Virus record (IMG/VR): IMGVR_UViG_3300028992_000014
Source of the DNA: a virus
Taxonomy: Duplodnaviria; Heunggongvirae; Uroviricota; Caudoviricetes
Length of the DNA: 14,495 nt
Direction: 5' to 3' (one strand)
Shown here: one piece after another, positions 3,809 to 14,495 of the stretch
Position numbering within the stretch: position 1 is the stretch's first letter
How the letters are laid out: every line of letters starts with the position of its first letter
Made by a program: the position numbers and the translations under genes
Notes under the pieces: generated by a model
Seen by the model: the letters and a program-made list of their open reading frames with translations, nothing else
What the model was told of the DNA's origin: nothing
The model's database searches: none

Positions 3809-4903
3809 ATGAGCAGACCGGACTGGGGGGCGTTGCAGCAGGAGTATATTGCTGAATACACCCGCTCCGGTATATCTCCGGTGGCATGGTGTGAAGCAAG
3901 GGGACTGAATTACGCAACAGCCCGTCGTTACATCAAAAAAACTCCGAAAAATGCGCAGACAGAAATGTGCAAAACTGCGCAAAAAAGTGCGCAGAAAAAA
4001 TCTGCGCAGACTGCACAAAAGCGGAACGAAAAATCTCAGGAAAAAAAGCCAGTATTCGATGCGGGCCTGAATGAGGGCGACGCGGAGGAATTTTCGTTCT
4101 GTCCCGATGAATTCGGCATTTCTGACCAGCAGGCTAAGTTTGCGATGCTTGTTGCTCAGGGTAAAAAGCCGACAGAGGCGTACCGACTAGCCGGTTATGA
4201 GGGGCAAGGTGCGACAGCTAACAGCAACGCCAGTCGTATGCTTAGAAATGCCAGGGTTTTTCGCGCTATCAGCTACTTCCGCAATCAGTACCAGAAACGC
4301 TATACCGCAGACCTGGATTTACTAGTGAGTCAGTTGATGGCTATTGTCCTGGCCGACCCCAATCAGCTTGCACAATTTCGCCGTGTTAACTGCCGTTATT
4401 GCTGGGGCGAGAATCATCTCTACCAGTGGCGCGATATAGCAGAATTCGACAAGGCAGCGGCGCAGGCTTCCAGAGATGGCAAACCCGAACCGGAATATGG
4501 AGGCCTCGGCTTTGTTGATAACGCCATACCCAATCCGGACTGCCCGAAGTGCTGCGGTGAGGGAACGGGACAGCTTTATATGGCTGATACCACTCTGCTT
4601 GATGGGGATGCGCGGCAATTATATGCAGGGGCAAAATTCGGAAAATTCGGCGTTGAGATCCTGCTGGAGGATAAGGCTGCCGCCCGGCGTGAATTGTTGC
4701 GTTTGTTTTCTGCTGGCGGGGCTTTATGTGCAGATAAGCGGCTACAGGAACTGGAAATTGAACGGCGCAGAATGGAAAACCAGAAGCTGCGCAAAGAGAT
4801 CGAAACGGTGGAAGATAATGAACATCCCCAGCCTGTGGCGATCAATATTAATGTGGTTGATGCCAGAGTAAGGAGTGATGAAGATGATCTCTCCGACGCT
4901 TAA
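3809..4903 (+). CDS. Terminase small subunit (Terminase_2 / P27-family-like core) with N-terminal HTH, low-complexity linker and C-terminal Cys cluster
   Basis: Core ISDQQAKFAMLVAQGKKPTEAYRLAGYEGQGATANSNASRMLRNARV fits the conserved TerS pattern (KQxxF...AGY...A..R.L.N..V) as I recall it; lies directly upstream of TerL; C-terminus has CRYC ... CPKCC. Confidence 0.85.
   Translation: MSRPDWGALQQEYIAEYTRSGISPVAWCEARGLNYATARRYIKKTPKNAQTEMCKTAQKSAQKKSAQTAQKRNEKSQEKKPVFDAGLNEGDAEEFSFCPDEFGISDQQAKFAMLVAQGKKPTEAYRLAGYEGQGATANSNASRMLRNARVFRAISYFRNQYQKRYTADLDLLVSQLMAIVLADPNQLAQFRRVNCRYCWGENHLYQWRDIAEFDKAAAQASRDGKPEPEYGGLGFVDNAIPNPDCPKCCGEGTGQLYMADTTLLDGDARQLYAGAKFGKFGVEILLEDKAAARRELLRLFSAGGALCADKRLQELEIERRRMENQKLRKEIETVEDNEHPQPVAININVVDARVRSDEDDLSDA
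3952..4020 (+). repeat. Cluster of palindromic TGCGCA hexamers (4 exact, 2 variant) at roughly 12-bp spacing inside the TerS gene; candidate pac / terminase recognition site
   Basis: TGCGCA at 3952, 3976, 3988 and 4003; TGTGCA at 3966; TGCACA at 4012. The same DNA encodes the low-complexity peptide KNAQTEMCKTAQKSAQKKSAQTAQK. Confidence 0.5.
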
Positions 4904-12594: not shown

Positions 12595-13557
12595 GTGAGT
12601 TCAGGTGCAAAGGTTATCTCGGCATTTATCCGGGAGACAGTTGCAGGCACTACGCCAGCAAGTGGTGACTGGAGTTTATTAAAACGCACAAGCTGGGGAG
12701 TAAAACCCACCCAGAATAAAGGCGAAAATAATGAGATTGGTGGCTCCCGGATGGCTCAGGGGGCGACGCCTGGCACTGTGGATGTCGGCGGTGATGTTGG
12801 TACCAAATTTCGCTGGGGTCAACATGATGATTTTCTTGCATCCTGTTTCGGCGCGGAATGGTCAGGCGATTCTCTGACAATGGGGAATGAGCGAATAACA
12901 TTTTCTCTGGCGACCTATGCGTCCGATGTCGGAATTGCCTCTGTCGTCAGAGGAGCGCAGGTTGGCTCATGGAAAATGCAGATCCCTAACGACGGCGATA
13001 TTACAGCGACCGTAACCTTTGCCGGGCTGGGCTGGGAATCAAAGGCCGATGATACGAATTTTATCAAAGGCGAACCTGTGGATAGTGCAGGAAAGTTACG
13101 CTATTCGTTTAAGGAGGTTTCAGCAGTAAGCCTGAATGGTGTTGCCGGAGGTAACGGTTTTTGTATCGACAGTTTTGATATTCAGTTCGATAACAAACTC
13201 CAGACACAGCGTTGTATCGGGACTGGCTCGCCTTATGCAGGAGCAAATATTCCGACTACTTTTACACCGTCCGGTACGGTGACGCTTTCATGGTCTAAAG
13301 CCGCGTGGGAAATCTGGAGTAAAACACTGACTGGAGAAACAGTTCCGTTCAGCTTCACGCTTTCGAATGGAGAGGGGGCATACACTTTCAGTTTCCCGAA
13401 GGTTCAGGTGTCAGGTGAATGGCCTGATGGGGGTAATACTGACATTATCCAGGTTCAATTGAGCATTACCGCAGCAGATGAAGCACCTACGATAACCAGA
13501 AAAAAATGCTCCCCGACTGCCGTGATCGCAAAAGCCAGTGCTGATGCGATTAGTTGA
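12595..13557 (+). CDS. Major tail (tail tube) protein
   Basis: GTG 12595 preceded by AGGAGG at 5-nt spacing; 320-aa Gly/Ser/Thr-rich protein directly upstream of the G/GT chaperone pair. Confidence 0.7.
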   Translation: MSSGAKVISAFIRETVAGTTPASGDWSLLKRTSWGVKPTQNKGENNEIGGSRMAQGATPGTVDVGGDVGTKFRWGQHDDFLASCFGAEWSGDSLTMGNERITFSLATYASDVGIASVVRGAQVGSWKMQIPNDGDITATVTFAGLGWESKADDTNFIKGEPVDSAGKLRYSFKEVSAVSLNGVAGGNGFCIDSFDIQFDNKLQTQRCIGTGSPYAGANIPTTFTPSGTVTLSWSKAAWEIWSKTLTGETVPFSFTLSNGEGAYTFSFPKVQVSGEWPDGGNTDIIQVQLSITAADEAPTITRKKCSPTAVIAKASADAIS

Positions 13558-13569
13558 TTTTCCGTTATT

Positions 13570-13596
13570 CCCCCTGTGGTACTGCACTACAGGGGG
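13570..13596 (+). promoter_or_regulatory. GC-rich hairpin whose 3' arm contains the Shine-Dalgarno of the chaperone gene
   Basis: Perfect 8-bp inverted repeat ccccctgt (13570-13577) / acaggggg (13589-13596) with an 11-nt loop; no T-tract follows; the 3' arm AGGGGG is the only SD-like element before ATG 13606. Confidence 0.4.
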
Positions 13597-13605
13597 ACGC
13601 ATTGA

Positions 13606-14067
13606 ATGAGGTTATGGATGTTTATTCTTAATCAGAAAATTATCATCGGTGGAGAACGCTGGTTTACGCCAATGAAGGACTTAAAACCTGTAGACGGGTT
13701 AAAACTGTTGGTGGCAAGCAGCGATAACGATCAGTATCGCTCCCGTAATGCATTAATCCGTCGTCACATTGAGAAAATGGATGCCAGTTTGCACGTCGGA
13801 ACGAAGGAGTTTGATATTTCAAAGGTTTCCGAGGTAGATTCTGTTGATGATTTACTCATTGATAATGCTGCTCGTTATCTGCTGAAAGACTGGAAAGGGG
13901 TTGGTGAACTGGTTAATGGTGCTGAGGTTGCACTGGAATATACGCCAGAACGAGGGATCGCGCTGCTTAAGCAGAATCCAGAGTTGTACTGGCAGATCCT
14001 TGCAGAAGCAGCCAGCATCGCCCAGGGTAAAGAGCAGCAGAAGCAGGATACGATAAAAAAGCCATAG
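13606..14067 (+). CDS. Tail assembly chaperone G (lambda gpG analogue)
   Basis: 153-aa ORF directly after the major tail protein gene; ends ...QDTIKKP* with the slippery heptamer A_AAA_AAG over its last codons. Confidence 0.8.
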   Translation: MRLWMFILNQKIIIGGERWFTPMKDLKPVDGLKLLVASSDNDQYRSRNALIRRHIEKMDASLHVGTKEFDISKVSEVDSVDDLLIDNAARYLLKDWKGVGELVNGAEVALEYTPERGIALLKQNPELYWQILAEAASIAQGKEQQKQDTIKKP

Positions 14068-14375
14068 CCGCCCAGCGGTGGTTATCGGAGTTCGGGGGAG
14101 AAAGGGGGGAAAAGGCAAGATGGAAGCGAGAAAAACTCAGGTTGCCACCGATACCGGAACCAGAAATAGACCCGGTGCTTAAGGAATTGTTGTACGCCTA
14201 TTCGGTAATATCCCGTGCCCGACGTTATGCTGGAATGACCGGGGTGCCTTTGCCTTTATCTCTGACAGAGATAAATGAATATTTAGCCACTCATCCGGTA
14301 TTGATTGAGCGCGATGAGTTTGAAGCAGTGATCTTTGCACTGGATGACCAGTATTTTCAGGAGCAGTGTGTGTAG
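13606..14375 (+). CDS. Tail assembly chaperone GT fusion, made by -1 frameshift at 14055-14061 (the T segment is track ORF 14142..14375)
   Basis: After the slip the reading continues ...KKAIAAQRWLSEFGGERGEKARWKREKLRLPPIPEPEIDPVLKELL...FQEQCV* with no stop; the T segment has no independent ATG or RBS (the track ORF begins at TTG), consistent with expression only as a fusion. Confidence 0.7.
14055..14061 (+). other. -1 programmed ribosomal frameshift slippery heptamer A_AAA_AAG (G to GT)
   Basis: Heptamer aaaaaag at 14055-14061 is in X_XXY_YYZ register with the G frame; the -1 frame is open from here to the stop at 14373-14375. Confidence 0.75.
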
Positions 14376-14495
14376 TTGTTAATTACGTACACTCTGTTAC
14401 AGAGATGTGATGGTTGAAGTGGTCAACAAAAACTGGCCACCGAGTTAGAGTTTTTTCCAGTATCGATTTTCCGATTCGTTTGGTGGTAACCCACC

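What the first reader, a model, noticed from the sequence alone, without database searches (positions are those of the whole stretch)
13606..14375. Conserved G/GT tail-chaperone -1 frameshift at A_AAA_AAG
The heptamer A_AAA_AAG (14055-14061) sits two codons before the G stop, and the -1 frame is open from there to 14375. The downstream T segment has no ATG or SD of its own. This matches the programmed frameshift conserved across long-tailed phages; the identical heptamer is used by E. coli dnaX. A G-rich run (GGGGGAGAAAGGGGGGAAAAGG, about 14094-14115) lies about 33 nt downstream and might form part of a stimulatory structure.
Basis: partly seen in the sequence, partly recalled or inferred. Interest (0 to 1): 0.45.

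Follow-up and report, generated by a model that had tools for sequence, protein, structure and literature searches.

The report
Rac-type prophage tail-chaperone G/GT frameshift
This is a real but ordinary example of the programmed backward ribosome slip that long-tailed phages use to make a minor, extended tail-assembly chaperone; here it lies in the Rac-type prophage gene that E. coli databases call ydaY, where the slip is not annotated.

Summary
A_AAA_AAG at 14055-14061 is in phase with the 149-codon ORF 13618-14067. The -1 frame is open for 104 codons, to the TAG at 14373-14375.

The ORF lies directly after the tail-tube gene. In uninterrupted relatives it lies before the tape-measure gene.

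It matches PHROG 313 (tail assembly chaperone, E = 8e-47) and is the full-length form of E. coli 'YdaY' from the Rac prophage.

Comparison of about 200 related loci, from Escherichia to Pseudomonas phages, gave four results:
- The shift site keeps the same aligned position, while the 0-frame stop moves (+1, +7, +25 or +35 codons).
- The site is A_AAA_AAG in most loci and G_GGA_AAG, G_GAA_AAG or C_GCA_AAG in others.
- The wobble-position periodicity switches from frame 0 to frame -1 exactly at the heptamer.
- The T peptide is conserved from its first codon.

The G-rich run lies at 14084-14105, not 14094-14115. It encodes a conserved FGGExGEK motif and shows no conserved or significant RNA structure.

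An 11-bp hairpin right after the heptamer exists only in the E. coli clade.

An IS3-family element begins at 14415, between T and the tape-measure gene.

Verdict: a new, unannotated member of a well-known kind. Interest is low to moderate.

The parts
12595..13557 (+). Major tail (tube) protein gene, directly upstream of G. Context part.
   Evidence: Pfam Phage_tube_2, E = 1.5e-31. PHROG 290, E = 1e-111.
13570..13597 (+). GC-rich hairpin in the tube-G spacer (CCCCCTGTGG...CTACAGGGGG). It has no U-run.
   Evidence: Folding of the 68 nt upstream of the G start gives -24.2 kcal/mol, z = -2.9. Relatives carry an unrelated hairpin followed by a U-run at the same place. No terminator was called here.
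13618..14067 (+). Gene G (ydaY family), the tail assembly chaperone: 149 aa, 16.9 kDa. An alternative upstream ATG lies at 13606.
   Evidence: PHROG 313 'tail assembly chaperone', E = 8e-47. There are 175 homologues, all carrying PF27119. The start is conserved in 18 aligned homologues. Relatives are annotated 'YdaY'.
14055..14061 (+). Slippery heptamer A_AAA_AAG in phase with G, followed by CC.
   Evidence: It keeps the same aligned position in about 200 loci. Variants G_GGA_AAG, G_GAA_AAG and C_GCA_AAG occur there.
14061..14375 (+). T segment: 104 codons in the -1 frame plus TAG, reached only by the slip. GT is 252 aa, 28.8 kDa, with junction ...DTIKK|AIAAQR...
   Evidence: PHROG 1189, E = 1.7e-36, and a weak Phage_TAC_18 match. 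Wobble periodicity is in frame -1 from the first 30 nt after the heptamer. The peptide is conserved from codon 1 out to Pseudomonas phages.
14062..14088 (+). Local 11-bp hairpin starting right after the heptamer. Seen only in the E. coli clade. A possible weak stimulator.
   Evidence: One search gives the structure. Only 59% of cells pair across 16 diverse relatives, and the core pairs are broken in 10-12 of 16. The z-score is not significant.
14084..14105 (+). G-rich run, which encodes FGGERGEK of T in the -1 frame.
   Evidence: One search gives the coordinates. The peptide motif is conserved while the third codon positions vary.
14415..14495 (+). End of an IS3-family insertion sequence, inserted 39 nt after the T stop in the spacer before the tape-measure gene.
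   Evidence: The element is 100% identical to ISEc52 ends and 97.5% to IS911. Homology to uninterrupted relatives breaks at 14414/14415.

Best explanation
Genes 13618-14067 (G) and 14061-14375 (T) form the tail-assembly-chaperone pair of a Rac-type lambdoid siphovirus or prophage.

Proposed mechanism:
- Most ribosomes read G to the TAG at 14065 and make a 149-aa chaperone.
- A minority slip back one base when AAA and AAG of A_AAA_AAG occupy the P and A sites. Both tRNA-Lys(mnm5s2UUU) re-pair to AAA AAA.
- These ribosomes continue in the -1 frame and make a 252-aa GT fusion.

By analogy with lambda gpG/gpGT, the shared G part would coat the tape-measure protein, the T part would recruit the tube protein, and the fixed low GT:G ratio would be set by the slip.

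What is shown here: the sequence anatomy, the gene order, and the conservation of the site and of the -1 coding frame. What is inferred: that slippage actually occurs, its efficiency, and the binding partners.

No conserved RNA stimulator was found. The efficiency is therefore probably low, from a few tenths of a percent to a few percent.
For: Anatomy:
- The heptamer is in phase, and a 104-codon -1 ORF follows it with no way in from upstream.
- The 104-codon -1 ORF is exceptional among the 22 in-phase heptamers of the window.

Context:
- The window holds terS, terL, portal, scaffold, major capsid, adaptor and tube genes, then G and T.
- The tape-measure gene follows in relatives.
- G matches PHROG 313, tail assembly chaperone, E = 8e-47.

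Comparative evidence:
- In 98 loci the aligned site is slippery in 97. The 0-frame stop lies +1, +7, +25 or +35 codons away.
- With the Klebsiella-type and Pseudomonas-type loci added (202 sequences), the site is A_AAA_AAG in about 173, G_GAA_AAG in 23, G_GGA_AAG in 3 and C_GCA_AAG followed by a stop in 1.
- The change from GT-A_AAA_AAG to GT-G_GGA_AAG alters three bases together and replaces Lys by Gly, yet keeps the X_XXY pattern.
- Variability peaks at codon position 3 of frame 0 upstream (0.34-0.44). It peaks at position 3 of frame -1 from the first 30 nt downstream (0.32-0.50).
- The T peptide aligns from its first residue, with 38-93% identity.
- T is intact in 95 of 98 loci.

Literature:
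- The lambda G/GT paradigm, the use of A_AAA_AAG by dnaX, and a 3' CC as the most shift-prone neighbouring dinucleotide are all in PMC5009743.
- A_AAA_AAG gave 0.29% frameshifting alone and 4.3% with the IS911 stimulators (PMC4066793 supplement).
- A_AAA_AAG is used by another E. coli prophage chaperone, ECs1801.
Against: - No protein data: the GT product has not been seen for this family.
- No conserved downstream structure and no clearly conserved upstream SD. Without a stimulator the heptamer gave only about 0.3% in a reporter.
- One relative (L013, Pectobacterium) has G_GGG_AAG, which cannot re-pair canonically in the A site.
- G shows no detectable sequence similarity to lambda gpG or to the Sp9 chaperone.
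- The Pfam chaperone match for T is below threshold.
- The AlphaFold model of G was too poor to test the fold (pLDDT 48).
- In this window an IS separates GT from the tape-measure gene, so this copy may be part of a defective prophage.
Confidence: 0.9

Rival explanations
1. T is a separate small protein translated from its own start codon (TTG 14142 or TTG 14190), as GenBank records of relatives annotate it. No frameshift occurs.
For: Relatives are annotated with a 62-aa 'hypothetical protein' that corresponds to 14190-14375. The ORF listing gives a 77-aa TTG ORF at 14142-14375.
Against: - The 27-43 codons upstream of these TTGs are conserved as protein in the -1 frame. Wobble periodicity is in that frame from the first 30 nt after the heptamer.
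- There is no convincing SD before either TTG.
- The -1 frame is closed 8 codons upstream of the heptamer, with no start codon in between.
- Independent initiation does not explain why a slippery site is kept at one aligned position while the G stop moves.
Confidence: 0.03
2. The GT product arises from RNA polymerase slippage on the A6 run, which would delete one A in a fraction of transcripts. It would not arise from ribosomal slippage.
For: The site contains six consecutive A residues. Transcriptional slippage is a known alternative route to the same kind of product (PMC5009743).
Against: - Relatives make the same frame change at G_GGA_AAG, G_GAA_AAG and C_GCA_AAG. Their A-runs are only 3-4 long, too short for efficient polymerase slippage by established knowledge. 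All of them keep A_AAG in phase with the 0 frame.
- Polymerase slippage has no need for codon phase, yet the phase is invariant.
Confidence: 0.04
3. The two ORFs are a decayed single gene, broken by a frameshift mutation in a defective prophage. The heptamer would then be coincidental.
For: The window copy sits next to an IS insertion. The E. coli K-12 copy is a truncated remnant. Homopolymer-length variants exist among database proteins (P0001 and P0028).
Against: - The same two-frame layout occurs in about 200 loci from Escherichia, Salmonella, Citrobacter, Klebsiella, Raoultella, Serratia, Pantoea and Erwinia, and in Pseudomonas phages. These include isolated phages.
- Both frames carry a purifying-selection signature.
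- A single-ORF fusion is the rare exception (P0011).
Confidence: 0.01

Closest known systems
Phage lambda gpG/gpGT programmed -1 frameshift (Levin, Hendrix and Casjens 1993; Xu, Hendrix and Duda 2004, 2013, 2014, as cited in PMC5009743)
   Same: - Two overlapping ORFs lie between the major tail gene and the tape-measure gene.
- The slippery heptamer, with AAG in the A site, lies a few codons before the G stop.
- The -1 extension is of similar size (104 codons here, 144 in lambda).
- Three relatives use lambda's exact heptamer, G_GGA_AAG.
- My script recovered the lambda site as a positive control.
   Different: - No detectable sequence similarity between this G and lambda gpG (hhalign probability 0.1%).
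- The heptamer here is A_AAA_AAG.
- The tube gene is of the Phage_tube_2 type.
- A hairpin lies between the tube gene and G, and in relatives a 163-nt spacer with a terminator-like hairpin lies between T and the tape-measure gene. In lambda T overlaps H.
E. coli O157 Sakai prophage Sp9 tail assembly chaperone ECs1801 (cluster A_AAA_AAG_25 of Sharma et al. 2014, PMC4066793)
   Same: It is an E. coli prophage tail chaperone that uses A_AAA_AAG at the very end of G, with a -1 extension of about 102 codons.
   Different: It is an unrelated protein family (hhalign probability 0.2%). Its stop codon follows the heptamer directly. ydaY is not mentioned in that paper or in its supplements.
E. coli dnaX gamma/tau -1 frameshift
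   Same: The heptamer A_AAA_AAG is identical and the mechanism is the same: tandem slippage of the single tRNA-Lys (PMC5009743).
   Different: From established knowledge, dnaX has a strong upstream SD-like element and a downstream stem-loop, shifts at about 50%, and gives a shorter product. Here no conserved stimulator was found. There is only an AGGA 6 nt upstream, and it coincides with conserved Gln-Asp/Glu codons. The shifted product here is longer.

Membership tests
G/GT tail-assembly-chaperone programmed -1 frameshift of long-tailed phages | Two overlapping ORFs located between the major tail (tube) gene and the tape-measure gene | tested here: met
   The tube gene is at 12595-13557, followed by G and then T. 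The tape-measure gene follows T in uninterrupted relatives L001, L101 and L102. In the window itself an IS intervenes from 14415.
G/GT tail-assembly-chaperone programmed -1 frameshift of long-tailed phages | [quoted passage not shown] | tested here: met
   A_AAA_AAG lies at 14055-14061, and the stop comes one sense codon later.
G/GT tail-assembly-chaperone programmed -1 frameshift of long-tailed phages | Downstream ORF in the -1 frame that lacks its own initiation signals and is under coding selection from the shift site onward | tested here: met
   Wobble periodicity flips at the heptamer. The T peptide is conserved from its first residue. There is no start codon between the upstream -1 stop and the site.
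G/GT tail-assembly-chaperone programmed -1 frameshift of long-tailed phages | Shift site conserved among homologues although other features, such as the stop position, drift | tested here: met
   Of 202 sequences, all but one keep A_AAG in phase at the aligned site, as part of four different heptamers. The 0-frame stop lies +0 to +35 codons away. The exception is L013, with G_GGG_AAG.
G/GT tail-assembly-chaperone programmed -1 frameshift of long-tailed phages | G and T recognisable as tail-assembly-chaperone proteins | tested here: inconclusive
   - G matches PHROG 313 'tail assembly chaperone' at 8e-47.
- G has no match in this Pfam-A copy or in NCBIfam.
- T matches Phage_TAC_18 at only 17.6 bits against a cut-off of 27.
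- The C-terminal part of T matches annotated chaperones of Acinetobacter phages.
- There is no PDB relative by sequence.
- The AlphaFold model (pLDDT 48) is too poor for a fold test.
G/GT tail-assembly-chaperone programmed -1 frameshift of long-tailed phages | A minor GT fusion protein is made at a fixed low ratio and is needed for tail assembly | not testable with these tools
   This needs a western blot, mass spectrometry, a reporter assay and genetics.
dnaX-type stimulated -1 frameshift cassette | Conserved downstream stem-loop, upstream SD-like stimulator, or both | tested here: not met
   The hairpin at 14062-14088 is confined to the E. coli clade. Only 59% of cells pair across 16 relatives. 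The consensus fold is -3.8 kcal/mol. The z-scores run from -1.4 to +1.1.

The most novel reading that the evidence does not exclude
Across this chaperone family only the tetramer A_AAG, in phase, is invariant. The P-site half varies:
- canonical in most loci (A_AA or G_GG);
- G_GAA_AAG in all 23 Pseudomonas-phage loci;
- C_GCA_AAG followed directly by TAA in Erwinia phage Gungnir39.

If those phages make GT, then A-site slippage of a single tRNA-Lys is enough for a functional G/GT ratio, helped in one case by an adjacent stop codon. Annotation rules that require X_XXY_YYZ would then miss such sites.

A side consequence concerns E. coli K-12. Its ydaY remnant keeps the heptamer and an intact 104-codon T ORF, so K-12 may still make an unannotated trans-frame YdaY-T product.
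Probability: 0.4. Interest if true: 0.35.

Novelty: new member of a known kind. Interest (0 to 1): 0.25.

Why it matters
- The practical value is annotation. This chaperone family occurs in at least 708 of 5,426 complete E. coli genomes at near full length, and as a truncated remnant in K-12. RefSeq and GenBank label it 'protein YdaY' plus a 'hypothetical protein', with no ribosomal slippage.
- Recognising it as G/GT gives ydaY a function. It also adds a recoding site to Rac-type prophages.
- The family offers a natural series of shift-site variants for studying how much slipperiness a G/GT system needs.
- It does not change what is understood about phage tail assembly or about frameshifting.

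Tried and rejected
1. A stimulatory RNA structure involving the G-rich run or the hairpin at 14062-14088:
   - single-sequence folds were not significant;
   - pair counting on 16 diverse relatives gave 59% paired, with the core pairs broken;
   - RNAalifold gave only 6 weak pairs.
   Rejected as a conserved element. The hairpin may still act locally in the E. coli clade.
2. An upstream SD-like stimulator. AGGA lies 6 nt upstream in 13 of 16 relatives, but it coincides with conserved Gln/Lys-Glu/Asp codons. This cannot be separated from coding constraint.
3. A fold-level test of G against known chaperone structures. The AlphaFold2 model from the 18-sequence alignment had pLDDT 48, so no fold search was run. 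A profile search of PDB sequences found nothing.
4. Homology to lambda gpG and to the Sp9 ECs1801 chaperone: none.
5. Literature on ydaY or Rac and frameshifting: no relevant paper in the searchable library. Xu et al. 2004 itself could not be read, so I cannot exclude that a Rac-type prophage was listed there.
6. NCBIfam gave no family for G or T.

Full report
**1. The observation**

Reading 13400-14495 and translating both frames confirms the anatomy.
- The ORF that ends at TAG 14065-14067 reads ...GAT ACG ATA AAA AAG CCA TAG. A_AAA_AAG at 14055-14061 is therefore in the X_XXY_YYZ phase.
- After a -1 slip the next codon is GCC (14061-14063). The -1 frame stays open for 104 codons, to TAG 14373-14375.
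- Upstream, the -1 frame is closed by TAA at 14028-14030, with no start codon before the heptamer.

Three details need correction.
- The likely start of G is ATG 13618, with GAGG 6 nt upstream, rather than 13606. All 18 aligned homologues begin there, and GenBank records of relatives use it.
- The G-rich run is at 14084-14105, 22 nt after the heptamer. It is not at 14094-14115.
- The -1 ORF does contain in-frame TTG codons, at 14142 and 14190.

The 7-mer by itself is not rare: 7 copies in the window against 4.6 expected. As an internal control I listed all 22 in-phase X_XXY_YYZ heptamers in the 16 large + strand ORFs. The -1 ORF after them has a median of about 6 codons. Only this site (104 codons) and one that simply runs into the next gene's own ATG exceed 33 codons.

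**2. Where the window comes from**

The window is the morphogenesis module of a siphovirus-type prophage. It encodes small and large terminase, portal, head-morphogenesis protein, scaffold, major capsid protein and head-tail adaptor. A tube protein of the Phage_tube_2 type lies at 12595-13557.

The region is 99.9% identical to partial Escherichia phage genomes (the vB_EcoS-...R series). It also matches hundreds of E. coli chromosomes, where the upstream ORF is called 'protein YdaY'. In E. coli K-12 the Rac prophage keeps a 5'-truncated ydaY followed by the tape-measure remnant ynaA. In an uninterrupted relative the order is tube, YdaY, 'hypothetical protein', tape measure. None of these records annotates ribosomal slippage.

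In the window, homology to relatives stops at 14414. An IS3-family end begins at 14415, 100% identical to ISEc52 and 97.5% to IS911. That is 39 nt after the T stop, in the spacer before the tape-measure gene.

**3. What the proteins are**

- G matches PHROG 313, 'tail assembly chaperone', at 8e-47.
- T matches PHROG 1189 (no assigned function) at 1.7e-36. It matches chaperone families weakly, with Phage_TAC_18 at 17.6 bits, below the cut-off.
- The C-terminal part of T also matches annotated chaperones of Acinetobacter phages.
- G has no hit in this Pfam-A copy, in NCBIfam or in PDB sequences.
- G shows no similarity to lambda gpG or to the Sp9 chaperone ECs1801. That is usual for this functionally defined class (PMC5009743).
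- An AlphaFold2 model of G was too poor to test the fold (pLDDT 48).

**4. Comparative test**

I collected 97 related loci from genomes and viral contigs. I then added 101 loci of the Klebsiella and Pseudomonas types, plus three isolated phages.
- In the first set the aligned site is slippery in all loci but one. It is A_AAA_AAG in most and G_GGA_AAG in Raoultella, Serratia and Pantoea prophages. The 0-frame stop lies +1, +7, +25 or +35 codons downstream.
- In the full set of 202 sequences the site is A_AAA_AAG in about 173 and G_GAA_AAG in all 23 Pseudomonas-phage loci. It is G_GGA_AAG in 3, C_GCA_AAG followed directly by TAA in Erwinia phage Gungnir39, and G_GGG_AAG in one Pectobacterium prophage.
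- The change from GT-A_AAA_AAG to GT-G_GGA_AAG alters three bases together and replaces Lys by Gly, yet keeps the slippery pattern. That points to selection on slipperiness rather than on the protein.
- The script recovered the known lambda site as a positive control.

On an ungapped alignment of 16 diverse sequences, variability is highest at codon position 3 of frame 0 up to the heptamer (0.34-0.44, against 0.07-0.15 at positions 1 and 2). It is highest at position 3 of frame -1 from the first 30 nt after the heptamer (0.32-0.50).

The T peptide aligns from its first residue (AIAAQRWLSEFGGE.GEK...), with 38-93% identity out to Pseudomonas phages. T is intact in 95 of 98 loci, including K-12. 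These results cannot be explained by independent initiation at the TTG codons, or by a chance ORF.

**5. Stimulators**

RNAfold predicts an 11-bp hairpin at 14062-14088, directly after the heptamer.
- It is present only in the E. coli clade.
- Across 16 relatives only 59% of cells pair, and the core pairs are broken in 10-12 of 16.
- RNAalifold finds 6 weak pairs.
- Folding energies of the 50 or 70 nt downstream do not differ from shuffled sequence in any lineage (z from -1.4 to +1.1).

The G-rich run encodes the conserved motif FGGExGEK, and its wobble positions vary. Coding therefore explains it. An AGGA lies 6 nt upstream and coincides with conserved Gln-Asp/Glu codons.

The heptamer is followed by CC, which is reported as the most shift-prone 3' dinucleotide in E. 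coli (PMC5009743). In a reporter, A_AAA_AAG gave 0.29% frameshifting alone and 4.3% with the IS911 stimulators (PMC4066793 supplement). I therefore expect a low efficiency here, comparable to or below the roughly 1:30 ratio of lambda. This expectation is inference.

**6. Mechanism and rivals**

The best explanation is tandem -1 slippage of tRNA-Lys on A_AAA_AAG. This gives a 16.9-kDa G protein and a minor 28.8-kDa GT protein. By analogy with lambda, G would act on the tape-measure protein and T on the tube protein.

Three rivals were considered.
- Transcriptional slippage is unlikely. Relatives with only 3-4 consecutive A residues make the same frame change, and the codon phase is invariant.
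- A decayed single gene is excluded by the two-frame layout in about 200 loci from many genera.
- Independent initiation of T is excluded by the conservation of its first 27-43 codons.

**7. Novelty**

The G/GT frameshift is textbook. A_AAA_AAG is already documented for another E. coli prophage chaperone (ECs1801). What seems to be new is the assignment to the YdaY family of Rac-type prophages, which is unannotated in GenBank and RefSeq and absent from the searchable literature. The spectrum of shift-site variants in the family also appears to be new.

I could not read Xu et al. 2004, so prior listing of a Rac-type prophage there cannot be excluded. Verdict: a new member of a known kind, of low to moderate interest.

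Noticed in passing
window 4042-4048: A second in-phase A_AAA_AAG, also followed by CC, lies at codon 79 of 364 of the small-terminase ORF 3809-4903. A -1 slip there would end after 8 codons and give an N-terminal fragment of about 88 aa. I did not check whether it is conserved or merely tolerated.
   Followed up: no
window 13570-13597: A GC-rich hairpin lies in the spacer between the tube gene and G (z = -2.9 for the 68 nt upstream of the G start). Citrobacter, Klebsiella and Serratia relatives carry an unrelated hairpin followed by a U-run, which looks like a terminator, at the same place. This is a positionally conserved element whose sequence has been replaced. It may lower G, GT and tape-measure expression relative to the tube protein.
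   Followed up: partly
window 14415-14495: The end of an IS3-family element (100% identical to ISEc52 ends, 97.5% to IS911) is inserted 39 nt after the T stop. No complete E. coli genome in the collection has this junction. It separates GT from the tape-measure gene, so this prophage copy may be tail-defective.
   Followed up: partly
L001 7016-7139 (uninterrupted relative): Intact relatives have a 163-nt spacer between the T stop and the tape-measure ATG. It contains a terminator-like hairpin, AAACCCACTTCGGTGGGCTTTTTGTT. In lambda, by contrast, T overlaps H.
   Followed up: no
protein P0011 (E. coli NB16F79); corresponds to window 14002-14046: This is a natural single-ORF G-T fusion of 240 aa. 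Its sequence fits a 35-nt deletion between two copies of GCAGAAGCAG (14002-14011 and 14037-14046), which puts T in frame. The deletion is inferred from the protein sequence; I did not inspect its DNA. Such a variant would make only a GT-like protein.
   Followed up: partly
L002 2993-3352 and downstream (E. coli K-12 MG1655 Rac prophage): K-12 ydaY is a 5'-truncated copy of G, joined to ynaK by the Rac deletion. It keeps the A_AAA_AAG site and an intact 104-codon T ORF. A trans-frame YdaY-T product in K-12 is therefore possible, and it is not annotated.
   Followed up: partly
L013 3420-3426; L100/L101 (Pseudomonas phages); L102 (Erwinia phage Gungnir39): Non-canonical sequences occupy the aligned shift site. 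They are G_GGG_AAG in a Pectobacterium prophage, G_GAA_AAG in 23 Pseudomonas-phage loci, and C_GCA_AAG followed directly by TAA in Gungnir39. Only A_AAG is common to nearly all of them.
   Followed up: partly
window 14120-14182: An ATG lies in the third frame, directly after the purine-rich run, which resembles an SD. It opens only a 20-codon ORF. The ATG/GTG arises from the invariant Trp codon of T (xxR TGG), so it is probably meaningless.
   Followed up: partly
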